Source: a bacterium
GTDB lineage: Bacteria; JAAXHH01
Direction: 5' to 3'
DNA length: 64,000 bases
NCBI GenBank assembly: GCA_963665755.1
Contig: OY762445.1
Location: 2,214,590 to 2,278,589 of the forward strand
Shown here: one piece after another, positions 40,781 through 53,707 of the stretch
Numbering within the stretch: the first letter of the stretch is position 1
Layout: each line of letters opens with the position of its first letter
Translations under genes and position numbers: made by a program
The notes under the pieces: generated by a model
The model's input: only the letters and a program-made list of their open reading frames with translations
What the model was told of the DNA's origin: nothing
Database searches by the model: none

Positions 40781-41539
40781 ATGACTCCCCACGAAAGATA
40801 CCTCTTCGACCTGCAGGGCTTCATCGAGGTCCCGGACGCCATTGACGTCGGGCAACTCGCCGAATTGAACGGCATACTGGACGAGAAGATCGACGGGGCC
40901 ATGGCGCCCGGCGCCACCACCCACCGATTCGGTTTCACGCTGCTCGACTGGGGACCCGCGTACCGGGCATTGATAGACAACCCGCGGATAGATCCTTACC
41001 TGGAAAAGCTGATCGGTCCAAAGTACCGGCTGGACCACGACTACGCCGATATCATCCGCAAAGGCGACGGTCCCATCGGCACGACCCTCCACGGCGGCGC
41101 CATTCCCTTCGACCCTCTCTACTCCTACACCTGCACCAACGAAGAGATCCGTTGCGGCCTGACCGTGGTGGCCTACTACCTGAAGGACGTCAATCCAGGC
41201 GACGGCGGATTCGGCTGCGTACCCGGCAGCCACAAGAGCAACTTCCGGTTCCCGGACGAGTGGCGCAACCTCAAGACCGACCAGCCCTTCATCCGAGCCG
41301 TAACCGGCAAGGCCGGCACCGCCGTGATCTTTACCGAAGCGCTGACCCACGGGACCATGCCCTGGCGCGGCGACGAGCGCCGCACCCTCTTCTACAAGTA
41401 CTCGCCCAATTCGATATCCTGGTACGCGGAATACTACGACGCCGACCGGTACGAGGGTCTGACGGAACGGCAGCAGAAGATCCTTGAAGCGCCGAACGCG
41501 CGGTACGGGCAGCGGTTTAAGCGTGGGGTGGTGGTGTAG
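40781..41539 (+). CDS. PhyH-family Fe(II)/2OG oxygenase-like protein with a non-canonical H-G-G in place of the H-x-D/E metal motif
   Basis: It aligns with the two other PhyH-family genes in this window (…WHRD… / …WHMD… versus …TLHGGAIPFD…). The distal His is conserved (CVPGSHKSNF). The start was chosen at MTPHERYL. Confidence 0.65.
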   Translation: MTPHERYLFDLQGFIEVPDAIDVGQLAELNGILDEKIDGAMAPGATTHRFGFTLLDWGPAYRALIDNPRIDPYLEKLIGPKYRLDHDYADIIRKGDGPIGTTLHGGAIPFDPLYSYTCTNEEIRCGLTVVAYYLKDVNPGDGGFGCVPGSHKSNFRFPDEWRNLKTDQPFIRAVTGKAGTAVIFTEALTHGTMPWRGDERRTLFYKYSPNSISWYAEYYDADRYEGLTERQQKILEAPNARYGQRFKRGVVV

Positions 41540-42135
41540 GTGGGTTTTTCGGATAGACCAGCTAATATCTCGACAATAGGAATACCTTACGAGTAAACCA
41601 ACCGATCTTTCGGCAACATGAATGTGGCATTAGAGATTTCTGAATCAAGAGGTTACCGATGGACGTCAAGGAAACCGTAAGGACAGCCATGGATAATGTT
41701 GCCGACATGTACTCGGAAGAGGGTATTTCACAGATAGGATTAGAAGAGGTAGAGTACGATGAACTGAACGCTCAAATGAAAAACAACCGAGTGAGTTGAT
41801 TTCCGAATTGCGTCATCAACGAGGAACGCTCTCAGTTTCCATTACTCTTTTCATACACGTTTTCAACAATAGCTAAGACGTTGTAATCCTTTTCGGGTTC
41901 AGTTTAAAACACGAATCTACGAGCACTGAGCGTAGTGTACTTATATAGGGATTGAAACAATGGATCGGGCGTTTCGCAATTACTCTTGGACATTACTGAA
42001 ATGTTTTTGACCTCGTTTTAAGACTGATAAACTATCCGCTAATCAAATTTGTATGTGATTCCCCATTCAATTTCCTACTATCTACTTGCTAGACATGATA
42101 CCGGTGTAGAATAAGTAACTGACAAAGGAGTCATC
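41540..42135. other. AT-rich non-coding leader marking the left edge of a lower-GC acquired block (the defence island)
   Basis: There is an abrupt compositional change relative to the flanking high-GC genes. About 600 bp has no ORF of 60 aa or more. One 46-codon acidic ORF (41659-41799) has an AAGAGG RBS. Confidence 0.6.
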
Positions 42136-43944
42136 GTGGCGATCGCAACAACGCCTGTGGCAGACAGACACGAAACGATATCGCCAACTTCGGCGCAGGC
42201 CGATATCGAATCGGCATCAGTGAGTGCCCGGAGGCTTGCATCGTCGGTGAAACCTGAAAACCGACTTGATTTTGCCCGCACGATGGTTTACGGCGTTGTC
42301 TGCGCATATTGGGAAGGGCTACAGTCAAGGTCAGGCTGGAGCCTGCCGCTACGGAAACCGCCCTTCGATTGCCAAGTCACGCCTGTACTTCCGGAAGTCA
42401 GCGCACTGGCGCAAATTATCGGAACGGCCGCAAACTTGCTTCCGCCAACGCACGCCAGCTACCAGATAGGCATGGTTTACACCGCAATGATGCCGGACAG
42501 GTTACGGGCTGAACTAGGAGCGTATTACACGCCGCCCGCGCTATGCGAGCGATTGCTGGAGATGGCAACGGAGGCTGGTGTCGATTGGCGTTCGGCCCGG
42601 ATTCTCGATCCTGCGTGTGGAGGGGGCGCATTCCTGTCTCCGGTGGCGCATCGAATAATGGAAAACCTGGATGGCCGCAGTGCCGAGACCGTGCTGAATA
42701 ACATACAGCAACGTCTGCATGGATTCGAACTTGACCCCTTTGCGGCGTGGCTTTCAATGGTATTTCTCGATGCGACCCTCGGTGAAATGTACTTAGAGAC
42801 AAGAACCCGGCTTCGTTCCATCGTGCGGGTGCAAGACACGATGGAACGGACTCCGTCGGGCGAAGGGTTCGATCTTGTCGTTGGAAACCCGCCGTACGGA
42901 AGAATCTCATTGTCAACAGATCTGCGTAACAGGTTCCGCCGCAGCCTGTTTGGCCATGCAAACTTGTATGGCGTGTTTACCGATCTGGCGTTGCGCTTCG
43001 CGAGCCCCGGAGGGGTGATCGCATTCGTGACCCCCACGAGCTTTCTTGCCGGCGAGTATTTCAAGAATCTACGCGACCTGCTTGGACGGGAAGCTCCGCC
43101 TGTGAGCATCGACTTTGTTGGCGAACGCAAGGGGGTTTTTACTGATGTGTTGCAGGAAACCTTGTTGGCAACCTATAGGCGTGGCGGCAACCCATATGTG
43201 GGCGAAGTGCATTTCATTACGCCTGGACCGGATGGCTCGATTACAACAAAGACCGCAGGATCCTTCGGTCTGCCTGAAGAACCGGCCCACCCATGGGTTA
43301 TGCCGCGTTCTGAAGATCAATGCCTGCTGGTGCGGCAGGCCGAGCGACTGCGGTATCGACTGGCCGACTACGGCTATACGGTGAGCACCGGACCCCTGGT
43401 TTGGAACAGACACAAAGAGAGCTTGAGAGGAGGACCCGGAAAGGGGCGATATCCGTTGATCTGGGCAGAATCGGTGCGCCCATACGGTGAGTTTGAATTC
43501 AGGGCAGTTAAGCGGAATCACAAACCGTATTTCGAACCAAAGCCAAACGAGTGCTGGGTAGTCACCGATTCGCCGTGCGTGCTGTCCCAAAGGACCACGT
43601 CGAAGGAGCAAAATCGGCGTTTGAAAGTGGCAGAGTTACCCATGTCCTTCGTCGAGAAACACGGTGGTGTGGTTGTCGAGAACCATTTGAACATAATCAA
43701 GCCGCTCGATGGCGAGCCGAAGGTGACACCTACGGCGTTGTCTGCTTTGTTGAACAGCGAAGTGGTAGACAGACTGTTCCGTTGCATAAACGGCAGCGTC
43801 GCGGTATCCGCCTATGAACTGAAATCGTTGCCCCTCCCATCTCCGGAAGACATGAAAGCAATTGAGCAAATGGTGAATCGTCGCGCGAAACGTAAAACGG
43901 TGGAACGGGCGGTAGAACGTCTGTACAGCGTCGGAGTGACATGA
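42136..43944 (+). CDS. N6-adenine DNA methyltransferase, gamma class (Eco57I/TaqI-like), type II RM modification subunit
   Basis: Motif X (GAYYTPPAL), motif I (ILDPACGGGAFL) and motif IV (VVGNPPYGR) are in gamma-class order. A C-terminal region of about 150 aa fits a target-recognition domain. Confidence 0.85.
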   Translation: MAIATTPVADRHETISPTSAQADIESASVSARRLASSVKPENRLDFARTMVYGVVCAYWEGLQSRSGWSLPLRKPPFDCQVTPVLPEVSALAQIIGTAANLLPPTHASYQIGMVYTAMMPDRLRAELGAYYTPPALCERLLEMATEAGVDWRSARILDPACGGGAFLSPVAHRIMENLDGRSAETVLNNIQQRLHGFELDPFAAWLSMVFLDATLGEMYLETRTRLRSIVRVQDTMERTPSGEGFDLVVGNPPYGRISLSTDLRNRFRRSLFGHANLYGVFTDLALRFASPGGVIAFVTPTSFLAGEYFKNLRDLLGREAPPVSIDFVGERKGVFTDVLQETLLATYRRGGNPYVGEVHFITPGPDGSITTKTAGSFGLPEEPAHPWVMPRSEDQCLLVRQAERLRYRLADYGYTVSTGPLVWNRHKESLRGGPGKGRYPLIWAESVRPYGEFEFRAVKRNHKPYFEPKPNECWVVTDSPCVLSQRTTSKEQNRRLKVAELPMSFVEKHGGVVVENHLNIIKPLDGEPKVTPTALSALLNSEVVDRLFRCINGSVAVSAYELKSLPLPSPEDMKAIEQMVNRRAKRKTVERAVERLYSVGVT

Positions 43945-45029
43945 TGGTATTGCCTGCTTTGACACCCGTATCCGATATCCATGAACGGCTGCAGGTCATC
44001 TTTCCATCCGGAACGGCTAACCGGAACTACGTGACACGCGAGATCGCTGCCAAGACGGTATTCGTCATGATGTATAGCGGCGCGATAGAAGGATCGGACC
44101 ACTGGATACGACCGGACCAGGTGACTCGGATGACCGATGTACAGGCAGCGTCTACGAGCGACGCCGACCGCGAAGCGTGGCGGGAAGAGTCTCTGCGGCC
44201 CGCGGCTGGATCTATAGAGGGACGGTGGTACGCTGTTAATACACGCGAGCCGATCCGCGACGAGACGTTGCGCGAGGGGTTGGTGCGGACCGGTGCCGTG
44301 GTGGAGCGGGAAAGGATTCCAACGACCTCGCCGAGGCCGCGCTATGCGCTTACTCGGGATTTCGTGGCTTTGCTTGATCCTGGTTTGTACGGCAATGCCC
44401 TTGAAACTGCAGTTACGGCCTGGCAGAAATCGAATCTATCGACGGGTGCGCTGGCACGCATTGAGATCATGAGACAGGGTGCAGTCAGTAGCGAAGGTAG
44501 AGTTCTCGTTACGTTGCCAAGTGGCGAAACCCGGCAAATGCAACCGGGCCCGAGTTCAGTGATTTCAAAAGCCGTTATTGAGGAATTCGCACCGAGATTC
44601 CTTGGAGTGCCTGGGGCGATCTGGTTAAGCGAAAGTCGCAACCAGGTCGTGGCGCGGGATGATGAATTGGCACAGGCGATCGGCCTGACTATCGACCCGC
44701 AACGCAATCTGCCCGATCTGATCCTCGTCGACCTTGGTCCGGTTGAACCAGTGCTCGTGTTTGTGGAGGTAGTGGCAACATCCGGACCCGTTAGTGCGTC
44801 GCGCCAAGTGGCGTTGTGGAGGATCGCTGAAGAAGCCGGGTTCAACGAAAAACAGGTAGTATTCGTGACAGCCTTCGAGGACCGTGACACTGCCACGTTC
44901 AAAAGCTCGGTGAGCCAGTTGGCCTGGCGGTCTTTCGCGTGGTTCATGTCCGAGCCGGATCACATCATATTCCTGTATCAAGGCGCCCAGAACGGACAGG
45001 TGAAGTTGACGAATCTGAATGCCATTTAA
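43941..45029 (+). CDS. candidate type II restriction endonuclease partner of the upstream methyltransferase (BsuBI/PstI-family-like)
   Basis: A 362-aa ORF whose ATG overlaps the MTase stop (ATGA). It has an acidic/hydrophobic core segment (DLILVDLGPVEPVLVFVEVVATSG) compatible with a PD-(D/E)xK-type nuclease. The family assignment rests on gene context and general resemblance, not on a verified motif. Confidence 0.45.
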   Translation: MMVLPALTPVSDIHERLQVIFPSGTANRNYVTREIAAKTVFVMMYSGAIEGSDHWIRPDQVTRMTDVQAASTSDADREAWREESLRPAAGSIEGRWYAVNTREPIRDETLREGLVRTGAVVERERIPTTSPRPRYALTRDFVALLDPGLYGNALETAVTAWQKSNLSTGALARIEIMRQGAVSSEGRVLVTLPSGETRQMQPGPSSVISKAVIEEFAPRFLGVPGAIWLSESRNQVVARDDELAQAIGLTIDPQRNLPDLILVDLGPVEPVLVFVEVVATSGPVSASRQVALWRIAEEAGFNEKQVVFVTAFEDRDTATFKSSVSQLAWRSFAWFMSEPDHIIFLYQGAQNGQVKLTNLNAI

Positions 45030-45149
45030 AGTCATCGCTGAACAATCTCCGAACAGCGCTTTCTGTTGGTGGAATTGGAATCGTATAACAGTTCTGGTAT
45101 TTCTTATCAATTTGAAGTTGCGCCCGGAATGTGTTCACAAGGAGTACAT

Positions 45150-45503
45150 ATGACACTTCTGAAGGCAATAGAAGAAGTCCTGAACACGGTTCGAAAACCA
45201 CTACATGTCTCCGAGATATACACCGAAATCGTCAATCGGGACCTATGGAGTACTTCCGGAAAAACCCCCGAAGCGACAATCAGCGCACAACTCAGTTCAG
45301 ATCTCAAGAAACATGGTGACGCATCCCGGTTCGTCAGGGTTTCACCTCAGACCTTTGCCATGCACGATTGCACTTGGAATGACGACGAGAAAACAAAAAC
45401 CAATGCACTACAAAGACATTACATCAAAAGCACTAGAAAACGGTTGGCTGGTTACCAAGGGGAAGACCCCCGAGTTAACCATGAACGCCCAAGTGAACAC
45501 TGA
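45150..45503 (+). CDS. standalone Mrr_N (HARE-HTH winged-helix) domain protein. It may be the frameshifted N-terminal part of the downstream Mrr gene.
   Basis: MTLLKAIEEVLNTVRKPLHVSEIYTEIVNRDLW...GKTPEATISAQLSSDLKK...ASRFVRV matches the Mrr N-terminal domain. A perfect AAGGAG RBS lies 7 nt before ATG 45150. Confidence 0.55.
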   Translation: MTLLKAIEEVLNTVRKPLHVSEIYTEIVNRDLWSTSGKTPEATISAQLSSDLKKHGDASRFVRVSPQTFAMHDCTWNDDEKTKTNALQRHYIKSTRKRLAGYQGEDPRVNHERPSEH

Positions 45504-46086
45504 GATAAAACGACGGCGGAACCGAGGTGACGCTCCTCGATTTGTCCAGCACGGGCGTGGTTACATCGGCCTGAGCAAATGGCAAGCGCGAGGTTTGGCG
45601 TTCCAGATCGAGCAGTACAATCAAGAAGTGCGAAAGACGTTACGAGACCGTCTGCTGGCTATAAAACCTAAAGAGTTTGAAAAGCTGATTTCGCGATTGC
45701 TGGCCGAGATGGGCTTCGTCGAAGTGGAGGTCGGGAGTTTTCATGCCGACGGCGGAATCGATGTTCGGGGTGAACTTACGGTAGGAGATGTTGTTCGTTT
45801 GAAACTAGCTGTTCAGGTCAAACGATGGAAGCGCAACGTGCAAGCCCCAGTTGTTAGAGACGTAAGAGGTAGCCTGGGTGCCCACGAACAAGGACTGATA
45901 ATTACGACCAGCGATTTCGGGAAAGGAGCGAAAGAAGAAGCTGCCCAAGCCGACAAGAGCCCTATTGCGCTCATGAATGGAGAGCAACTCGTCCAACTTA
46001 TGATGGAATACGGTATCGGTGTCCACCGCTCGACACCCAATCTGCTCGAGATTGATGAGGAATCGCTGGCGTGGAACAAAGAATAA
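45403..46086 (+). CDS. mrr: Mrr-family type IV (modification-dependent) restriction endonuclease: a second Mrr_N domain plus the Mrr_cat nuclease domain
   Basis: Second Mrr_N copy (MHYKDITSKALENGWLVTKGKTPELTMNAQVNTEIKRR...APRFVQH). The catalytic core is GGIDVRGE ... VQVKRW (PD-(D/E)xK of Mrr_cat). The frame is +1 relative to the upstream Mrr_N gene, with 101 nt of overlap. Confidence 0.7.
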   Translation: MHYKDITSKALENGWLVTKGKTPELTMNAQVNTEIKRRRNRGDAPRFVQHGRGYIGLSKWQARGLAFQIEQYNQEVRKTLRDRLLAIKPKEFEKLISRLLAEMGFVEVEVGSFHADGGIDVRGELTVGDVVRLKLAVQVKRWKRNVQAPVVRDVRGSLGAHEQGLIITTSDFGKGAKEEAAQADKSPIALMNGEQLVQLMMEYGIGVHRSTPNLLEIDEESLAWNKE

Positions 46087-46099
46087 TGGAGCGAAGGCC

Positions 46100-48232
46100 A
46101 TGAACTCAATACCGGAAGAATCCTCTAATCGTCCTTGCTGGTTTGTAGGTGCAAGTTACAATAGGTCCGAAGACCAAACCGAACGGTTCCTCCAGGAAGG
46201 AATTTGGGAAAACGACTTCGACGTCGATCATCCAGCCGTCGAAATGACCAAGTCAATGAAAACAGGAGACCGTATTGCGATAAAGGCAACCTACGTTCGT
46301 AGAAAGGCGTTGCCGTTTGAAAATAACGGACGGCCCGTGTCAGTTATGGCAATCAAAGCCATTGGTATAGTTGTAGAAAATGCTGGCGATGGTCATACTG
46401 TCAGGGTCGACTGGACACGAGTCGATCCCATACGTGAATGGTATTTAAACACCTATATACGTACAGTTTGGAAGGTGACGCCAGGAAGCGACTGGTACGC
46501 CGATGCCTTGATAGGGTTTGCATTCGAGAACAAAAAACAGGACATCGATCGGTTCTTGAAGATTGACTACTGGGGAAAGAGATACATAGACGATTCACCC
46601 GGGAAACAACGATACGCCTGGACTAGTTTCTATGAGTCTTTCGCGGATCAGTTACTCACATTTAAAGATAAGCGTGCCGATCTAATCGATAGGATACATG
46701 CCGTCGCTACCAAAGAAAACTCAATGTACTTAGTGCAAGATCTATTTTCTGATGGTACGTCCGGACCACTTAATGACATTTGCCCGTTTACGACCATGGC
46801 TATGTTCAACAGGGGAATAACGGATTCTAACAGGTATTTGGTAGCTTCAGAATTGGCTAACCAACTAGGCGTGTCTGAGTCGGTACCGGATAAATTCGAA
46901 GGCATCCCAGTAGTAGACAATCGCAGCTCCTGGTTTTTCAACTACGAAAAAGACAGGAAGTCAGACGCTATTGATGTTCTCTGGAACGTTTTCTTCTGTG
47001 CCATGTCCTTTTCCGACTCCGTTTCGGAGAATCCCGACACGCGATCTGCTTTCATCTCCGCCTATGAATCCGCTATAAAACTACCTAATGTTGGTTGGAA
47101 ACTATCATTTGGTCTGTATTGGATTCGGCCTTGGTCTTTTCCTTCCCTCGACACTCTGGCTCGGGATTTCATAGAAAAAGAACTTGATACTGTAATTGGC
47201 CTTAACGGCCCAAAGAACCGATGCAACGCAGATGACTATCTAAACGTCCGAGATGCTTTAGATGCCAAGTTCAAGGAAGAGGGCTGCCCTGTAAATTCTT
47301 TTCCGCAACTCGCCTATGAGGTCTGGATGAACAAGGTGGGCCCCACTACATATACGTTAAACAACATTGTAAAGGAAGGTTGCTTCATCGAAAGAAGCAA
47401 ACTCGAGTCGATACTCGACAGTCTTCGTACTGAAAAAAACCTCATTCTTCAGGGTCCGCCTGGTACAGGGAAGACATGGCTTGCCAGAAAGTTAGCCTTC
47501 GCCTTGATCGGTCAGCGAGATGAAAGCAAGGTACGCATGGTACAATTCCATCCCAATCTTTCATACGAAGATTTCGTGCGTGGGTGGCGACCGGCAGGAG
47601 ATGGTAGACTCACACTAGTTGATGGACCTTTCATTGGCATTAGGGATGCGGCAGAAAAAGATCCCAATTCTCCGTATGTCCTGGTTATCGAAGAGATCAA
47701 TAGGGGAAACCCCGCGCAGATTTTCGGTGAAATGCTGACTTTGTTGGAGGCCGACAAACGAACGCCTGACGAGGCGTTGGAATTGGTTTATCCGAGGACA
47801 TCGAACGAGCGTTTTTTTATTCCTAACAATCTATTTGTAATCGGAACAATGAATATCGCCGACCGGTCACTGGCACTCGTAGACCTGGCGCTGCGCCGGC
47901 GGTTTGCCTTTATCGATCTTGAACCCACCCTTGGCGAGCCCTGGCGAGACTGGGTCCATTCGAAAAACGGAATTCCAAAAGAAACGCTCGTCGAGATTGA
48001 GAATCGTATTGTAGACCTTAACCAAACGATTTCCAAGGACACTAGTCTCGGACCGCAGTTTCGCTTGGGACACAGCTACGTTACACCTAAATTCGCAAAC
48101 CCGATTGACGATGGTAAGATGTGGTACCGGAAGGTTGTCGGTACGAAGATCGGACCGCTGCTCGACGAATACTGGTTTGAAGACTTGGAGTCATCAAAGA
48201 AGGCAATACAAAAGCTACTGGAAGGGTTTTGA
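46100..48232 (+). CDS. mcrB: McrB-family GTPase (type IV restriction AAA+ motor) with an unusually long N-terminal DNA-reader region of about 450 aa
   Basis: AAA+/GTPase motifs of McrB are present: GPPGTGKT (Walker A), LVIEEINRGNPAQIFGE (McrB signature), FVIGTMN and the arginine finger region. The N-terminus is an uncharacterised reader region (see finding). GGAG lies 9 nt upstream of the start. Confidence 0.85.
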   Translation: MNSIPEESSNRPCWFVGASYNRSEDQTERFLQEGIWENDFDVDHPAVEMTKSMKTGDRIAIKATYVRRKALPFENNGRPVSVMAIKAIGIVVENAGDGHTVRVDWTRVDPIREWYLNTYIRTVWKVTPGSDWYADALIGFAFENKKQDIDRFLKIDYWGKRYIDDSPGKQRYAWTSFYESFADQLLTFKDKRADLIDRIHAVATKENSMYLVQDLFSDGTSGPLNDICPFTTMAMFNRGITDSNRYLVASELANQLGVSESVPDKFEGIPVVDNRSSWFFNYEKDRKSDAIDVLWNVFFCAMSFSDSVSENPDTRSAFISAYESAIKLPNVGWKLSFGLYWIRPWSFPSLDTLARDFIEKELDTVIGLNGPKNRCNADDYLNVRDALDAKFKEEGCPVNSFPQLAYEVWMNKVGPTTYTLNNIVKEGCFIERSKLESILDSLRTEKNLILQGPPGTGKTWLARKLAFALIGQRDESKVRMVQFHPNLSYEDFVRGWRPAGDGRLTLVDGPFIGIRDAAEKDPNSPYVLVIEEINRGNPAQIFGEMLTLLEADKRTPDEALELVYPRTSNERFFIPNNLFVIGTMNIADRSLALVDLALRRRFAFIDLEPTLGEPWRDWVHSKNGIPKETLVEIENRIVDLNQTISKDTSLGPQFRLGHSYVTPKFANPIDDGKMWYRKVVGTKIGPLLDEYWFEDLESSKKAIQKLLEGF

Positions 48233-49353
48233 GGGTGAACAGGGCGGTTGAGAGCGCTGTTTCTGAGACGACCGAGAACGTCGGCCATATCGGTCGTATC
48301 CCCGTTCGAAATCTGTGGCTGCTCATGCTATACGCCTCCGATCTTTTCAGGCAACTTGATGTATCCGAAGACCGTTCCTTCGAAGATAATCCAGATAACC
48401 TACCCGATCTGGTTGCCGAGATCCTCGCCCATGAAGTCGAGCGTCGATTAAGGCGGAATCTGAGTTACGGTTACCGGTACCGTCACGAAGTGCTCGGACG
48501 GGTTCGCGGACGTATCGACCTTCTCCAAACCGAGGCTCATCAATTACTTCAACGGGGCATGGTTGCCTGTCGATTCGACGAACTGACGATCGACACACCC
48601 AGGAACAGGTACGTTCGATCCGCCCTCGAAATGATATCTAGATTCGTTCGAAGGAATGACCTGGCTCACCGGTGCCGATCTCTCGTTGGTAGCCTGAGGC
48701 GCCAGGGCGTCGTTGGCGAGCGGCCGGGGCGCGAGGAGACTTCAGTCGAACGTTACGGTAGACACGATGCCGTTGACCGAAAGATGGTGGACGCTGCTCG
48801 ACTCGCTTTCGAAATGGCCATTCCGACTGAGCAGACCGGTTCCAGACACCTTCCGTTACCCGATCGCGAGATCAACTGGATACGCAGGCTCTATGAGAAA
48901 GGCGTTGCAGGATTCTATGATGTGGTACTTTCCAGAAGGGGATGGAAGGTGTATACGGGAACGATTCTCAGATGGTCCACGAAAGACAGTAGTCCGCGAA
49001 TAGACCAGATACTCCCCACCATGCGTACCGATATCGTGTTGGACCACATGGATGACAATCACCGTATCGTTATCGACACGAAATTCAACTCGGTATTGTC
49101 GAAAGGTTGGTATCGGAATGAAGGGATTCGAAGCGGTTACATGTACCAGATCTACGCCTACCTGAGATCTCAGGAAGAGAGTGGCAATCCGCTTGATTTA
49201 CATGCAGAGGGCATTTTTCTTCATCCGTCGGTTGGCGAGAAGTTCAACGAGTGGGTAGAGATTCAGGGACATAGAATCCGGTTTACCACCGTGGATCTCA
49301 GTGCGGATGCGAAGACCATTCGATCTCAGTTGTTGGATGCGGTGGGACTTTAA
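48229..49353 (+). CDS. mcrC: McrC-family nuclease subunit (PD-D/ExK)
   Basis: It follows McrB with a 4-nt overlap (TTG or GTG start). The C-terminal nuclease motif is ...TMRTDIVLDH...IVIDTKFN (D...D-x-K). Confidence 0.8.
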   Translation: MRVNRAVESAVSETTENVGHIGRIPVRNLWLLMLYASDLFRQLDVSEDRSFEDNPDNLPDLVAEILAHEVERRLRRNLSYGYRYRHEVLGRVRGRIDLLQTEAHQLLQRGMVACRFDELTIDTPRNRYVRSALEMISRFVRRNDLAHRCRSLVGSLRRQGVVGERPGREETSVERYGRHDAVDRKMVDAARLAFEMAIPTEQTGSRHLPLPDREINWIRRLYEKGVAGFYDVVLSRRGWKVYTGTILRWSTKDSSPRIDQILPTMRTDIVLDHMDDNHRIVIDTKFNSVLSKGWYRNEGIRSGYMYQIYAYLRSQEESGNPLDLHAEGIFLHPSVGEKFNEWVEIQGHRIRFTTVDLSADAKTIRSQLLDAVGL

Positions 49354-49444
49354 ACAGGCATTGCGCCCTTCATGTTTGTTAAACCTGCCCATTTCCCGCA
49401 TCCGATTGGTGCCATCGGTAGCTTCGGGTATCTCAGGAATAGAC

Positions 49445-50371
49445 TCACCCCACCTTCCTGAAGACCTCAAAACGACGGTCCAACCGGTCCTGGTCCGGAT
49501 GGTCACGGGTGCGTGAAGGCAGGTGCAGCCCCGATCCGTCCAGTTGCTTGAGGGCCTGGAGCAGGGGACCGTCATCCTGATCCAGCAGGCGGTCGGATAC
49601 GTGCAGCCGGTAGTCGGGGTCAATACCGATCAGGTGGGCGTCAAAGGCCGCGTGATGGATCTTGGACAGGGCCAGGCCGTTCGGAACGACGGGTTGCCCG
49701 AGGGCTTCGTCACCATCCGCGATGATGTGGGCGGCATCCAGTAACTGTGTTTCTGGCAGGCCGGTAATGGCACAGCGGCGTCCGTAAGCGTAAAGTACCG
49801 CTTCGCGGAACGTGGCTTGATGGAGTCGTTCCTTGACCATGCGCAAGGCATACCGCCGCTCTGCCGCGTTAATCGGAGCTTCCATCTCGGCCTGGTAGGG
49901 GTTCCCAAAGGCAAGCGTGGACTTAAGCGCGAATCCATCCCAATTGGAGATGAAGGTGGGAATGATCGCCTGGTACCGGCCGGGAGACACGCCGAGAAAG
50001 TAGATCACGGGAATCTGTTTCTCACAGGCAACCTTAAGCCACTGGTTGTCAGCTGCTTCCGGGTCCTGTCCCATGAAGGCGTAGTCCACGGTATCGTTGC
50101 CCGCGAAAATCTGGCTGTGGACCTGCCTTTGGTCGTCGTACCAGACTCGGCCACCCGATCTGGGGTACACGGTCCTGATCGAGAGTAGGTAACGCATCCG
50201 GCGCGGCTTGAATATGCCCCGCTGCGGATTGACCAGGGGGATCCTTTCGCCTTCGAATACGAACCCCGGCGCCAGTTCGTCCCTCGTAAGGTGGCCGTGG
50301 GTGTCACTCAGCCGCCGCACGTGATCGAAAGCGGCCATCCGTATACTCGAATCTTGGTCGTCGACGTTCAT
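49445..50371 (-). CDS. SRA-HNH type IV (5-methylcytosine-directed) restriction endonuclease candidate
   Basis: The N-terminal domain matches the SRA/YDG-domain pattern (GFVFEGERIPLV...RGIFKP...SIRTVYPRSGGRVWYDD). The C-terminal HNH_2 motif is present (AYGRRCAITG...LDAAHII...NGLALSKIHHAAFD). Confidence 0.65.
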   Translation of the reverse strand: MNVDDQDSSIRMAAFDHVRRLSDTHGHLTRDELAPGFVFEGERIPLVNPQRGIFKPRRMRYLLSIRTVYPRSGGRVWYDDQRQVHSQIFAGNDTVDYAFMGQDPEAADNQWLKVACEKQIPVIYFLGVSPGRYQAIIPTFISNWDGFALKSTLAFGNPYQAEMEAPINAAERRYALRMVKERLHQATFREAVLYAYGRRCAITGLPETQLLDAAHIIADGDEALGQPVVPNGLALSKIHHAAFDAHLIGIDPDYRLHVSDRLLDQDDGPLLQALKQLDGSGLHLPSRTRDHPDQDRLDRRFEVFRKVG

Positions 50372-50380
50372 TTCGGTCCT

Positions 50381-50821
50381 TTACCCCCGGTAAATCCTCG
50401 CATTGTGCCAGGATAGTACTTCGGTGGACGGCTGGTCCACAGCATTCCTGGGAACGACAATCTGATTCCCGTGCAAAGCGTAGTAATCGCGCCCGTTCTC
50501 GAACTCCTCCCGGACCTGTCCGCTGACCTCGAAGTGCAGATCCGGGGTCACCGTTACATATCCGGAATCGAACAGCCCGTGGATGTCGCGCCTCAGCAGC
50601 ATTCCGTTCCTGGCTTCGTGGATGCCCCCTTCGCTGTAGGACCGTATGTGCGCGGCGTCGAGGGCAGGCAGCGTCCGTTCGCGGGTAACTGCGCAACGGC
50701 GGTCGTAAAGGTCGGTTACCAGGGCCCTGAAAGCACCTTGGCCGAGACGCGGCTTTACCAGTTGTGGCTTGCCAAAAAGAGTTTGCCCGGCCTGGAGGTC
50801 TTCGGAATCACGGAACGAAGT
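50381..50821 (-). pseudogene. decayed paralogue of the adjacent HNH endonuclease. The HNH_2 domain is retained while the N-terminal reader domain is lost.
   Basis: The reverse-frame translation is open from a TGA at 50822-50824 down to 50381. It reads ...QGAFRALVTDLYDRRCAVTRERTLPALDAAHIRSYSEGGIHEARNGMLLRRDIHGLFDSGYVTVTPDL. The only Met (50602) lies inside the HNH motif. AT-rich non-coding DNA lies upstream. Confidence 0.6.
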
Positions 50822-51144
50822 TCAGGATCGCCCCAGAGGATGTTTGCAGGGTCTATCTCAAAAAATCCCGCTTTGTTGCATCAAGTATATAATTCCCTTA
50901 AAATAAAAGACGGCTACCATGGCAGGTCAAGTGCCGCCTGCGTAATGGAGATTTTTGACGTTTGGAACACCGAGCGAGTGCTTCCAGATTGCCTTGACCA
51001 AATGTACCGTTTAGTTTACTGAACGTTGGCACAATTGAACTTAGAAGTTACCATGGAATTCGAGCGAGGTTGTGAATGGACCGATACATATATTATGTTG
51101 CGAAGTTGTATTCATATATCGGAAATAGTACATAGGGGATTTGT

Positions 51145-51342
51145 GTGGTGAACAGTAACTCAAAAGACAAAAATGAACGGCGACCGCGTAAACGAAGCGC
51201 CAAACATGACAACTCGGTTGAAGGAAACCAACCGCGAGCCAACCTGGCAGAAGCGATACGCACCCGTTTTGCTCCATTGGGTGACGTTGAACTGGAGCTG
51301 CCACCACGCGAACCCATGCGCGAACCGCCCGATTTCGAGTAA
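51145..51342 (+). pseudogene. remnant of a FitA/VapB-type (RHH) antitoxin gene. The C-terminal half is conserved, the N-terminal RHH is absent and there is no cognate toxin gene.
   Basis: The C-terminus ...NLAEAIRTRFAPLGDVELELPPREPMREPPDFE matches the conserved tail of FitA/VapB-like antitoxins. The first 30 residues (GTG start, Lys/Arg-rich) are unrelated to an RHH. No PIN-domain ORF follows. Confidence 0.4.
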
Positions 51343-51466
51343 TGAGAACGCATTAACGCTTACCGGGACCTGTGGCTTGCGAAATCGCATATAGTTCGAC
51401 AGCATTGACTTTACCGGTAAATCAGTATCTTCGCATCCACATCCCCAACCTCACAAAGGACACCCC

Positions 51467-52861
51467 ATGCCCCCGATCGACATCGGTTCACGCCGCGAAC
51501 TGTTCGTCGACCGATACCTCGTCGACACCCTAACAGACGCCCACCAACACCTCCACGACCCCGTTCTGAAGGAGACGGTATTCCGCGTAGAGGAACCCCT
51601 GGAGAACGCCTGTACGGGTTGCTACAACCTGGTTCAGGCCGACGGTAAGATCCTGGTGTATTACCGCGGCTATCATCCCACGGGCAAACACGAGGATCTG
51701 CCCGAGGGTTGGGCGGAAACCCAGACGACAAACCTGCTGGTCAGCGATGACGGCATACACTTCGAACGGCCGAGCCTGGGGATGGTGGAAGCGGAGGGCT
51801 CGAAGCAGAACAACATCCTCGTCCGGGGCCGCGAGGCACACAACTTCTGCGTCTTCCTGGACGGCAATCCGGAAACCGCGCCCGATCAGCGTTTCAAGGC
51901 CGTCGGTGGGGAAGGCAGGGACAGTCTCTTCGGTTTCACTTCATCCGACGGATTGACCTGGAAACCGGTGCAGGACGGTCCCCTCGCTATCACGGGCGCC
52001 TTCGACTCGGTGAACGTGCCCCTGTGGGATAGCTACGCGGGTTGCTACCGCCTATTCAGCCGGTATTTCGAGCAGACGGGGAACGACGGCGTCGGGGTCC
52101 GCGCCATTCAGAGCTGCACCTCGGAGGATTTCATCCACTGGACCACGCCCGAACACCACGTGTACGGCGAAGGCGTCCCGTTCGAGCACTTCTACACCAA
52201 CGCCACCACGCCATGTCCGGGCGCGGAACACATCCTGCTGTCCTTTCCCATGCGTTTCGTGCCGGAACGGACGAAGGACATCGAGGGCATGGATTACCCC
52301 GGGGGCGGGGTGTCCGACGCGGTGTTCATGTCGAGCCGGGACGGCGTCCATTGGGACCGGAGCTTCATGGACGCCTGGCTGCGCCCGGGCCTGGAAAAGC
52401 GCAACTGGACGCACCGCAACCAAACGCCGGCCGCGGGGATCGTTCCGACGGCTCCGGACGAATGGTCGATGTACGTTGCCGAGCATTACGGCTGGGACAC
52501 CAACGGCGTGCGGCGGGTGACCGTCCGCCCCCACGGTTTCGCTTCCGTCCGGGCAGGATACCACGGGGGCGAGCTGCTCACGAAACCTGTGACCTTCACC
52601 GGATCGACGCTGTTTATCAACTACTCGGCGTCCGCCGTGGGCGCCGTGTCCGTCGAGATCCAGGATTCGGAAGGAAGGGCCGTCGAAGGTTTCGCCGCGG
52701 AGGACATGGATCCCCTGTTCGGCGACGACCTGGACGCCCCGATTACGTGGAAGGGCTCCGACGGTCTGAATGGCCTGAACCGGCTGAACGGGGTACCCGT
52801 CCGCCTGCGGTTCATCCTGAAGGACGCCGATCTCTTCTCGATCCGTTTCGGAGAATCCTGA
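51467..52861 (+). CDS. hypothetical protein, possibly a beta-propeller/beta-sandwich glycoside-hydrolase-like enzyme. High-GC host-type composition resumes here.
   Basis: A 464-aa ORF rich in Trp/Asp/Gly with repeated 'DGxxW' and 'SxDGxxW' motifs (SSDGLTWKP, SRDGVHWD) reminiscent of BNR/propeller hydrolases. No family could be assigned by eye. Confidence 0.4.
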   Translation: MPPIDIGSRRELFVDRYLVDTLTDAHQHLHDPVLKETVFRVEEPLENACTGCYNLVQADGKILVYYRGYHPTGKHEDLPEGWAETQTTNLLVSDDGIHFERPSLGMVEAEGSKQNNILVRGREAHNFCVFLDGNPETAPDQRFKAVGGEGRDSLFGFTSSDGLTWKPVQDGPLAITGAFDSVNVPLWDSYAGCYRLFSRYFEQTGNDGVGVRAIQSCTSEDFIHWTTPEHHVYGEGVPFEHFYTNATTPCPGAEHILLSFPMRFVPERTKDIEGMDYPGGGVSDAVFMSSRDGVHWDRSFMDAWLRPGLEKRNWTHRNQTPAAGIVPTAPDEWSMYVAEHYGWDTNGVRRVTVRPHGFASVRAGYHGGELLTKPVTFTGSTLFINYSASAVGAVSVEIQDSEGRAVEGFAAEDMDPLFGDDLDAPITWKGSDGLNGLNRLNGVPVRLRFILKDADLFSIRFGES

Positions 52862-52969: not shown

Positions 52970-53707
52970 CTATGCAGCCTTCGGCCTTAATTTCCGGTAA
53001 ATCACCGGAGTCAGGGAAATGGTGATCAGCAGGGCAAAGGCGATGCCCAGGTTGGTCAGCGCCGAAGACCTTAGCGCGTCGCGCGCCACGTCGTCGAGTT
53101 CGGCGCCGGCCATGTAGACCTGCATCAGCGACGCCGCGGTGTATGCGTAGATGAAAGTGGAAGGCGTGATGCCGATCATCGTCCCCAGTACGTAGTGTAT
53201 CTTGCGGATTCCGGAAAGCCCGGCGGCAAAGTTGAGTAGATTGAATGGGATCAATGGGATCAGCCGAAGCTGGAGCATGCGCAGGAAACCCTGGTTCCGC
53301 AGCTGGCGGTCGATCCGGTCGATCGGACCCCTGATATAGCGGGAGATGAAATCGCGGCCCAGGTACCGGGCCAGGTCGAAGGCCAGGTTGGCGCCTATGT
53401 TCGCGCCGACCAGCACGTAAAGCGTGCCCCACATAGCGCCGAAAGTGAACCCGGCGACAAAGGTCATGACCACCATCGGCGCGCCCACCGTCGTGAGGAT
53501 CGCGTACAGGGCGATAAATACCAGGGGTGCCCACCAGTAGCCCGCGATGGAATCGAAGAATCCCTCCATCGCATTGGGCTGGAGATACGCTCCCAGGGGG
53601 GTGAAGCTGTATACCAGAAAGCCGGAAAAGGCGATCGCCAGCAGGATGGCCAGTTTGACGAGCGAACGCTTCCGGCTCGTTCCCTCGCCGGGGCCTACCT
53701 GCCGCAT
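52970..53707 (-). CDS. TVP38/TMEM64 (DedA/SNARE-associated) family membrane protein
   Basis: Polytopic membrane protein. The characteristic 'GxxxG...R(Y/F)LGRD(F/I)' motif is ARYLGRDFISRY, and 'LRLIPLIPFNLLNFAAGLSGI' is also present. Confidence 0.8.
   Translation of the reverse strand: MRQVGPGEGTSRKRSLVKLAILLAIAFSGFLVYSFTPLGAYLQPNAMEGFFDSIAGYWWAPLVFIALYAILTTVGAPMVVMTFVAGFTFGAMWGTLYVLVGANIGANLAFDLARYLGRDFISRYIRGPIDRIDRQLRNQGFLRMLQLRLIPLIPFNLLNFAAGLSGIRKIHYVLGTMIGITPSTFIYAYTAASLMQVYMAGAELDDVARDALRSSALTNLGIAFALLITISLTPVIYRKLRPKAA

What the first reader, a model, noticed from the sequence alone, without database searches (positions are those of the whole stretch)
45150..46086. Mrr locus with a tandemly duplicated Mrr_N reader domain split across a +1 frame change inside an A-rich tract
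Two paralogous Mrr_N (HARE-HTH) domains are encoded back to back (…GKTPEATISAQLSSDLKK…ASRFVRV versus …GKTPELTMNAQVNTEIKRR…APRFVQH). The first ends in frame A and the second begins in frame A+1. The two frames overlap by about 100 nt around 'gagaaaacaaaaacc' (45388-45402). Either this is a real two-gene arrangement, a standalone reader protein plus Mrr. Or it is a single Mrr_N-Mrr_N-Mrr_cat enzyme interrupted by a frameshift in a slippery A-tract, from a sequencing or assembly error, pseudogenisation or slippage-based phase variation. A double-reader Mrr would itself be unusual.
Basis: seen in the sequence. Interest (0 to 1): 0.6.

Follow-up and report, generated by a model that had tools for sequence, protein, structure and literature searches.

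The report
Broken double-reader Mrr-type restriction gene
This is a damaged copy of a common bacterial defence gene (two HARE-HTH DNA-reader domains fused to an Mrr-type nuclease), split into two reading frames by a net loss of about 56 bases, so it is an ordinary pseudogene in a defence island rather than a new gene arrangement.

Summary
Window 45150-45365 encodes a complete HARE-HTH domain. A second, paralogous HARE-HTH plus an Mrr_cat nuclease follow in the +1 frame, ending at 46086.

The double-reader architecture is not unusual. Nearly all of the 120 best database relatives are single ORFs of 327-380 aa with HARE-HTH, HARE-HTH and Mrr_cat, covering 95-100% of the repaired query. The syntenic orthologue L005 (about 85% DNA identity) carries an intact 330-aa gene.

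Deleting one A does give a continuous 311-aa ORF. But the lesion is not a simple slip. Between the end of domain 1 and the conserved KPMHY motif the window has 37 nt, where intact relatives have 84-93 nt. That is a net loss of 47-56 nt, which is 2 mod 3. The conserved first helix of reader 2 (SFTDCAQKVLE.FG) is lost or unrecognisable.

The same lesion occurs in four other assemblies. One of them differs by 18 SNPs over 8 kb, so this is not an assembly error. No intact near-identical allele was found. The A-runs are only 4 and 5 nt long.

Verdict: a recently inactivated member of a known HARE-HTH-REase family. Other relatives are independently broken. Low interest.

The parts
45140..45144 (+). 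Shine-Dalgarno-like AGGAG, 5 nt upstream of the ORF1 ATG
   Evidence: Read directly from the sequence. It is the only good ribosome-binding site in the locus. None precedes ATG 45379, ATG 45403 or GTG 45481.
45150..45503 (+). ORF1 (117 aa): reader domain 1, a short linker, then a 34-residue out-of-frame tail read through reader 2
   Evidence: The exact protein is present in four other contigs. The tail NALQRHYIKSTRKRLAGYQGEDPRVNHERPSEH is the wrong-frame reading of domain 2.
45150..45365 (+). HARE-HTH reader domain 1 (complete)
   Evidence: Pfam PF05066, profile 1-69 of 71, E 3e-21. It aligns to domain 1 of all relatives.
45366..45402 (+). Junction or lesion: 37 nt where intact relatives have 84-93 nt. 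It contains the A4 and A5 runs, and the frame changes here.
   Evidence: DNA and codon alignments against L005, L006 and L007. The net loss is 56 nt against L005 and L007 and 47 nt against L006, both 2 mod 3. Megablast similarity to L005 resumes at 45397.
45391..45585 (+). HARE-HTH reader domain 2, +1 frame, lacking helix 1
   Evidence: Pfam profile positions 15-71 only. tblastn matches P0001 domain-2 residues 15-79 at 91% identity. In the P0001 model the missing stretch is helix 87-98, with block pLDDT of about 89.
45403..46086 (+). ORF2 (227 aa from ATG 45403; ATG 45379 is an alternative; gene callers start at GTG 45481, giving the 201-aa P0037)
45655..46002 (+). Mrr_cat PD-(D/E)xK nuclease domain. 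The motif GGID...VQVK is intact.
   Evidence: Pfam PF04471, profile 2-115 of 115, E 6e-27. D and Q-x-K sit in invariant or nearly invariant family columns.
42136..45029 (+). Context: Type II R-M pair, an N6-adenine methyltransferase (42136-43944) and a BsuBI/PstI-family endonuclease (43941-45029)
   Evidence: Pfam and PADLOC MTase_II / REase_II. Syntenic in L005.
46100..49353 (+). Context: McrB-like GTPase (46100-48232) and McrC (48229-49353), starting 13 nt after the ORF2 stop
   Evidence: Pfam AAA_5 and McrBC. NCBIfam McrC reaches its curated cut-off, while the McrB match covers the C-terminal part only. The same trio is present in L005-L008, L025, L072 and L081.

Best explanation
The locus is an inactivated copy of a single gene of the HARE-HTH / HARE-HTH / Mrr_cat family. 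This family is a predicted modification-dependent (Type IV-like) restriction endonuclease: two winged-helix readers position a PD-(D/E)xK nuclease on DNA.

In this lineage the stretch between reader 1 and the conserved KPMHY motif of reader 2 is 47-56 nt shorter than in intact relatives. The loss removes or destroys the first helix of reader 2 and shifts the frame by +1. Translation from the only good ribosome-binding site therefore yields a 117-aa reader-1 protein with a nonsense tail. The nuclease part is left without its own ribosome-binding site and with a reader missing a core helix.

The lesion is real and inherited, and probably recent. How it arose is inferred, not shown. It could be slippage between short GA-rich repeats that flank the helix-1 segment (GAAAAG on both sides in L005).
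For: Architecture of relatives:
- 2912 hits to the repaired 311-aa query. Nearly all of the best 120 are 327-380 aa, cover 95-100% of the query and carry PF05066 plus PF04471.
- P0001 and P0039 each show two HARE-HTH stretches.
- In 80 species genomes the two readers and the nuclease lie in one frame in nearly all loci.

Orthologue:
- L005 has the same gene order (methyltransferase, BsuBI-type endonuclease, this gene, McrB, McrC) at about 85% DNA identity, with an intact 330-aa gene.

Lesion:
- 37 nt in the window against 93, 84 and 93 nt in L005, L006 and L007.
- Six family columns conserved at >= 95% (F, C, A, K, V, L of helix 1) are absent.
- The segment is a confident helix in the model of P0001.

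Reality of the lesion:
- L001, L003 and L004 are identical to the window.
- L002 differs by 18 SNPs over 8048 nt but is identical across 45300-45520.

Recency:
- Outside the junction the window deviates at only 6 conserved columns, against 8, 6 and 7 for intact close relatives.
- A branch count gives 15 changes on the window branch and 22 on the P0001 branch.
- dN/dS is 0.08-0.16, like the neighbouring genes.

Family habit of decay, in independent relatives:
- Frameshifts in L063 and L040.
- An IS-type truncation in L085.
- An A5-to-A6 insertion at the same lysine-lysine (KK) codon tract in L087.
- A nonsense codon in L088-L090.
Against: - There is no read-level data, so low-frequency intact alleles cannot be excluded.
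- The nuclease domain is intact and shows no extra decay. This would also fit continued use of ORF2.
- The exact deletion boundaries are ambiguous. MAFFT prefers a 48-nt in-frame gap plus an 8-nt gap, which leaves a heavily mutated helix-1 remnant DCTWNDDE. A single deletion of about 56 nt fits equally well.
- No function of this family has been tested experimentally in anything I could find. The role in restricting modified DNA rests on domain inference from the literature (PMC10853773, PMC4738411, PMC11037411).
Confidence: 0.85

Rival explanations
1. Functional split. The lesion created a working two-protein version: a free HARE-HTH reader (ORF1) and a separate nuclease with a shortened reader (ORF2), which act together or independently.
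For: ORF1 has a strong ribosome-binding site and a complete domain. The Mrr_cat catalytic motif is intact and there is no excess of substitutions. The split state is the only one seen, in five observations.
Against: - No relative conserves such a split. Reader-only ORFs elsewhere are obvious nonsense or frameshift derivatives.
- ORF2 has no recognisable ribosome-binding site at 45379, 45403 or 45481.
- Reader 2 lacks a core helix that contains invariant F, V and L residues.
- A third of ORF1 is out-of-frame tail.
- The five observations are one near-clonal lineage (99.8-100% identity), so they give no evolutionary evidence of retention.
Confidence: 0.07
2. Switchable gene. A one-base change in the A-tract (phase variation), or a programmed +1 ribosomal frameshift at AAA-A, restores a 311-aa reader-reader-nuclease protein.
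For: - Deleting one A gives a continuous 311-aa ORF that still scores for two HARE-HTH stretches plus Mrr_cat.
- AAA-A allows re-pairing of tRNA-Lys in the +1 frame (read from the sequence).
- One relative (L087) carries an A5-to-A6 insertion at the homologous lysine-lysine (KK) codon tract, so the tract can mutate.
Against: - The A-runs are 4 and 5 nt. By general knowledge this is far below the lengths that give high-frequency slippage.
- No length variant appears among the window and four other contigs.
- Relatives are simply in frame, so no frameshift signal is conserved.
- The restored protein would still lack helix 1 of reader 2 and be 16-19 residues shorter than its closest intact relatives.
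Confidence: 0.04
3. Sequencing or assembly artefact. The true genome carries an intact gene.
For: The data are metagenome assemblies, and no reads were available to me.
Against: The same sequence was recovered in ENA and Logan assemblies of different runs with different contig-naming styles. One has 18 SNPs elsewhere in the 8 kb. The difference from intact relatives is 47-56 nt, not a homopolymer miscount.
Confidence: 0.02

Closest known systems
HARE-HTH-REase fusion proteins of prokaryotic restriction and defence loci (Aravind and Iyer 2012, as cited in PMC10853773, PMC4738411 and PMC12839542). Database names are 'HTH domain-containing protein' or 'restriction system protein', e.g. Geobacter sulfurreducens P0039.
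   Same: Same domains (PF05066 twice, plus PF04471) and the same order. They sit in the same kind of defence-island neighbourhood.
   Different: The window copy is split by a frameshifting net loss of 47-56 nt and lacks helix 1 of reader 2. All close relatives are single ORFs.
E. coli K-12 Mrr (Type IV restriction enzyme), next to mcrBC in the immigration control region (from my own knowledge)
   Same: C-terminal Mrr_cat nuclease with a D...QxK motif, an N-terminal winged-helix reader, and genomic adjacency to McrBC.
   Different: The N-terminus here is two HARE-HTH domains, not one Mrr_N (PF14338 not detected). NCBIfam has no model for it. The PADLOC mREase_IV and PDC-S02 models match only the nuclease part.
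Winged-helix fusion endonucleases characterised as m6A-dependent Type IV enzymes (PMC11037411)
   Same: The same logic of a winged-helix reader fused to a nuclease. That paper also notes wH-Mrr_cat-NTPase fusions, which parallel the Mrr_cat gene followed by a McrB-like NTPase seen here.
   Different: Those enzymes use DpnI-type wH domains. The paper treats HARE-HTH as a separate, untested candidate reader, and no tandem HARE-HTH enzyme was characterised there.
RNA polymerase delta subunit (RpoE) N-terminal domain
   Same: It is the best structural match of the modelled reader domain: 8x6g_E, probability 1.00, TM 0.57 over 83 columns.
   Different: It is a transcription factor domain with no nuclease. 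This is only a fold-level relation.

Membership tests
HARE-HTH / HARE-HTH / Mrr_cat restriction-endonuclease family | N-terminal complete HARE-HTH domain (reader 1) | tested here: met
   PF05066, profile 1-69 of 71, E 3e-21. Aligns with domain 1 of 12 relatives.
HARE-HTH / HARE-HTH / Mrr_cat restriction-endonuclease family | Second complete HARE-HTH domain, including helix 1 (SFTDCAQKVLE.FG, with invariant F, V and L) | tested here: not met
   Only profile positions 15-71 are present. Six columns conserved at >= 95% are missing. The helix is residues 87-98 in the P0001 model.
HARE-HTH / HARE-HTH / Mrr_cat restriction-endonuclease family | C-terminal Mrr_cat nuclease with the catalytic D...QxK motif | tested here: met
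   PF04471, profile 2-115 of 115, E 6e-27. GGID and VQVK sit in invariant or nearly invariant columns.
HARE-HTH / HARE-HTH / Mrr_cat restriction-endonuclease family | All three domains in one uninterrupted ORF of about 327-380 aa | tested here: not met
   Reader 1 is in frame 3 and reader 2 plus nuclease in frame 1 of the window. Relatives are in one frame. The window is therefore a disrupted derivative, not an intact member.
HARE-HTH / HARE-HTH / Mrr_cat restriction-endonuclease family | Modification-dependent DNA cleavage | not testable with these tools
   Only inferred in the literature for HARE-HTH-REase fusions (PMC10853773, PMC4738411).
Canonical Mrr (E. coli type) | Mrr_N (PF14338) N-terminal domain | tested here: not met
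   No PF14338 hit at E <= 0.1 for ORF1, ORF2 or the repaired protein. No NCBIfam hit.
Phase-variable (simple-sequence contingency) gene | Long homopolymer or repeat tract in the ORF, with length variation between sampled genomes | tested here: not met
   The runs are A4 and A5. The sequence is identical across the window and L001-L004, including the SNP-bearing L002. Read-level data were not available.
Programmed +1 ribosomal frameshift gene | Frameshift site conserved in homologues, with the product needing the shift | tested here: not met
   Homologues are in frame across this region. Other frameshifted copies break at different sites.

The most novel reading that the evidence does not exclude
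The family appears to diversify by recombinational exchange of its N-terminal HARE-HTH module.

- Reader 1 averages 65% identity across the family, against 85% for the rest of the protein.
- Nearest neighbours are discordant between the two parts.
- One pair (P0006 and P0013) has reader 1 at 94% identity but the rest at 73%.
- Against L005, reader-1 dS is 1.67, compared with 0.35-0.67 for every other segment.

The window's break lies exactly where similarity to its orthologue changes (45397). If so, the locus is a snapshot of specificity-module shuffling in a Type IV-like enzyme, rather than a random deletion.
Probability: 0.2. Interest if true: 0.4.

Novelty: new member of a known kind. Interest (0 to 1): 0.15.

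Why it matters
It matters little on its own. It is one more decayed restriction gene in a horizontally acquired defence island.

For annotation, ORF1 and ORF2 should be flagged as one pseudogene, not as an 'HTH protein' plus a 'restriction endonuclease'.

More broadly, the tandem HARE-HTH / Mrr_cat family is large, spans many phyla and has not been tested experimentally. It has no NCBIfam model and no sequence match in the PDB. That makes the family a reasonable target for testing what HARE-HTH domains actually read. This broken copy is not the one to use.

Tried and rejected
- One-base slip as the whole story: rejected. The repaired ORF is still 16-19 residues short of its closest intact relatives and lacks helix 1.
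- Self-toxicity caused by the neighbouring m6A methyltransferase as the reason for inactivation: rejected. L005 keeps the same R-M pair with an intact gene.
- Long-standing pseudogene: rejected by the conserved-column, branch and dN/dS tests.
- McrBC as an obligatory partner: not supported. It lies downstream in only about 12 of about 62 loci with enough flank; the others have UvrD-like, HEPN-SNF2, KAP, GmrSD or RhuM genes.

Searches that gave nothing:
- NCBIfam for the gene.
- PDB sequence search.
- JGI metagenome scan for the junction with a flexible A-tract.
- Promoter and terminator scan.
- tRNA scan.

Other limits:
- Aravind and Iyer 2012 (PMC3272235) is not held, so it is cited only through papers that cite it.
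- The AlphaFold model was confident for both readers but poor for the nuclease (pLDDT 30-60, pTM 0.32). I therefore used it only to place the helices. Foldseek gave only a weak RpoE-delta match.

Full report
**What is in the sequence**

ORF1 runs from ATG 45150 to the stop at 45503 (117 aa). It is preceded by AGGAG at 45140-45144. Its first 72 residues are a complete HARE-HTH domain (Pfam PF05066, profile 1-69 of 71, E 3e-21).

The +1 frame is open from 45205 to 46086, with ATG codons at 45379 and 45403. It encodes a partial HARE-HTH (profile positions 15/18-71) followed by a full Mrr_cat nuclease (PF04471, E 6e-27). The two readers are paralogous at about 40% identity.

Pfam assigns the domains to HARE-HTH, and Mrr_N was not detected. 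The quoted A-rich string sits at 45387-45401.

**What relatives look like**

The repaired 311-aa sequence finds 2912 proteins. Nearly all of the best 120 are 327-380 aa, cover 95-100% of the query, and carry HARE-HTH plus Mrr_cat. The exceptions are four longer proteins (463-529 aa) and P0037, the 201-aa ORF2 that gene callers predict for this same lineage.

Pfam finds two HARE-HTH stretches in P0001 and in the Geobacter protein P0039. A scan of one genome per species returned 281 loci from many phyla. In the 80 that were kept, reader 1, reader 2 and the nuclease lie in one frame in nearly all. The double-reader architecture is therefore the norm of a large family.

HARE-HTH fused to restriction-endonuclease domains is already described in the comparative-genomics literature. 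There it is interpreted as a sensor of modified DNA (PMC10853773, PMC4738411, PMC12839542, all citing Aravind and Iyer 2012). PMC11037411 lists HARE-HTH as an untested candidate reader.

**The orthologue and the lesion**

Locus L005, from a 4.2-Mb contig, has the same gene order: N6-adenine methyltransferase, BsuBI/PstI-type endonuclease, this gene, McrB-like, McrC. It is about 85% identical in DNA and its gene is an intact 330-aa ORF.

The protein alignment shows that the window lacks the segment '...SLNFTACAQKVLEVLGEK'. Counted between the conserved codons 'TTT GCC ATG' (end of reader 1) and 'CCA ATG CAC' (PMHY), the lengths are:

| Locus | Length (nt) |
|---|---|
| Window | 37 |
| L005 | 93 |
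| L006 | 84 |
| L007 | 93 |

The net loss is 56 or 47 nt. Both are 2 mod 3, which explains the +1 frame change.

The lost or unrecognisable part is helix 1 of reader 2. Six columns conserved in at least 95% of 115 relatives (F, C, A, K, V, L) are absent. In an AlphaFold model of P0001 this segment is helix 87-98, within a confidently modelled domain.

MAFFT prefers a 48-nt in-frame gap plus an 8-nt gap, with a badly mutated remnant (DCTWNDDE against ACAQKVLE). A single deletion of about 56 nt is equally possible, and I cannot decide between them.

In L005 the helix-1 segment is flanked by the direct repeat GAAAAG. That would fit a slippage deletion, but this is inference only.

**Is the lesion real and fixed?**

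The exact ORF1 protein occurs on four other contigs from ENA and Logan assemblies. Three are identical to the window. L002 differs at 18 positions over 8048 nt, none in 45150-46086, and is identical across 45300-45520.

No intact allele closer than about 77-82% identity exists in the protein collection. The A-runs are 4 and 5 nt. An assembly artefact is therefore very unlikely, and phase variation has no support. Read-level data were not available.

**How old is it?**

Outside the junction the window departs from conserved family columns 6 times, against 8, 6 and 7 for the intact close relatives P0001, P0002 and P0003. With outgroups, 15 substitutions fall on the window branch and 22 on the P0001 branch.

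The neighbouring genes range from 0.12 to 0.19. The inactivation therefore looks recent, or the pieces are still under constraint. The catalytic GGID...VQVK motif is intact.

**Expression logic (inferred)**

Only ORF1 has a good ribosome-binding site. No Shine-Dalgarno-like sequence precedes 45379, 45403 or 45481. The likely product is a 13-kDa reader-1 protein with a 34-residue nonsense tail.

Any ORF2 product would carry a winged helix that lacks a core helix. Relatives show no conserved frameshift signal, so programmed frameshifting is not supported.

**The family decays often**

Independent disruptions were found in relatives:
- L063: frameshift in the linker.
- L040: frameshift inside reader 1.
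- L085: truncation of reader 2 at FGGKKPMHY, next to an IstB-like gene.
- L084 and L059: reader 1 lost.
- L087 (P0123): A5-to-A6 insertion in the homologous lysine-lysine (KK) codon tract.
- L088-L090 (P0122): GAA-to-TAA nonsense codon, seen on six contigs.

The short 'reader-only' ORFs found are therefore derivatives of the fused gene, not a conserved two-gene design.

**Side observations on the family**

Reader 1 is much more variable than the rest (mean 65% against 85% identity), and its relationships are discordant with the rest:
- The window's best reader-1 match is P0008 (75%), while its best reader-2-plus-nuclease match is P0001 (89%).
- P0006 and P0013 share 94% in reader 1 but 73% elsewhere.
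- Between the window and L005, reader-1 dS is 1.67, against 0.35-0.67 for all other segments.
- Megablast similarity resumes at 45397, at the lesion.

This suggests module exchange. It raises the possibility, at about 20%, that the lesion is a by-product of an imprecise swap.

Downstream partners vary. They are often only -3 to +17 nt away:
- McrB-like plus McrC, of two divergent types, in at least 11 loci.
- UvrD-like helicase in 10 loci.
- HEPN-SNF2 helicase in 5 loci.
- KAP NTPase, GmrSD or RhuM in others.

**Context in the window**

The gene lies in a low-GC island (46-57% against about 62%). The island carries the Type II R-M pair, the McrBC pair and an HNH_2 gene on the minus strand. The 464-aa protein at 51467-52861 is 84% identical to its L005 counterpart, which marks the shared right flank.

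**Verdict**

This is a recently broken member of a known and widespread HARE-HTH-REase family. Its slippery-tract mechanism and its claim that the architecture is unusual are not. Interest is low.

Noticed in passing
window 41000-52000: Low-GC island (46-57% against about 62% in the flanks). It holds a Type II R-M pair (42136-45029), the broken HARE-HTH/Mrr gene, McrB-like plus McrC (46100-49353) and an HNH_2 endonuclease on the minus strand (49445-50371). The stretch of about 2 kb from 49.4 to 51.4 kb, with HNH_2 and two ORFs without Pfam hits, is absent from the syntenic locus L005.
   Followed up: partly
L005-L008, L025, L072, L081; L010, L034, L071, L083 (with L059 cut off by the contig end): The tandem HARE-HTH / Mrr_cat gene recurs directly upstream of McrB-like plus McrC, often with a 4-nt overlap. 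Two McrB types only 27-29% identical to each other are involved, across unrelated phyla. Other loci have a UvrD-like helicase (10 loci) or a HEPN-SNF2 helicase (5 loci) in the same position. This may be a modular pairing of nuclease with NTPase motor, or just clustering within defence islands.
   Followed up: partly
family alignment of 115 proteins (P0001-P0120); P0006 against P0013: Reader 1 evolves as a separate module. Mean identity is 65% against 85% for the rest. There are 535 pairs with at least 90% identity in reader 2 plus nuclease but at most 60% in reader 1. One pair has 94% in reader 1 but 73% in the rest.
   Followed up: partly
L087 4270-4300; L088 2480-2490; L063 8216-8303; L040 7900-8000; L085 2250-2345: Independent inactivations of the same family elsewhere: an A5-to-A6 insertion at the GGKKPMHY tract, a GAA-to-TAA nonsense codon (on six contigs), two other frameshifts, and a truncation next to an IstB-like gene flanked by short repeats.
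   Followed up: yes
L010 2527-7992 and L087 1-3930: A very large protein (1821 aa) with no Pfam match lies immediately upstream of the HARE-HTH/Mrr gene in two unrelated loci (an Opitutaceae MAG and a JGI metagenome contig).
   Followed up: no
window 46100-47300: The McrB-like protein has an N-terminal region of about 400 aa annotated only as DUF8425 (precomputed Pfam hit). By eye, its first 130 residues or so look like a PUA/EVE-type modified-base reader. This was not tested.
   Followed up: no
window 51467-52861: A 464-aa ORF without any Pfam hit is 84% identical to the corresponding L005 protein. It is conserved next to a VTT-domain membrane protein (52970-53707, minus strand) and marks the shared chromosomal flank of the island.
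   Followed up: partly
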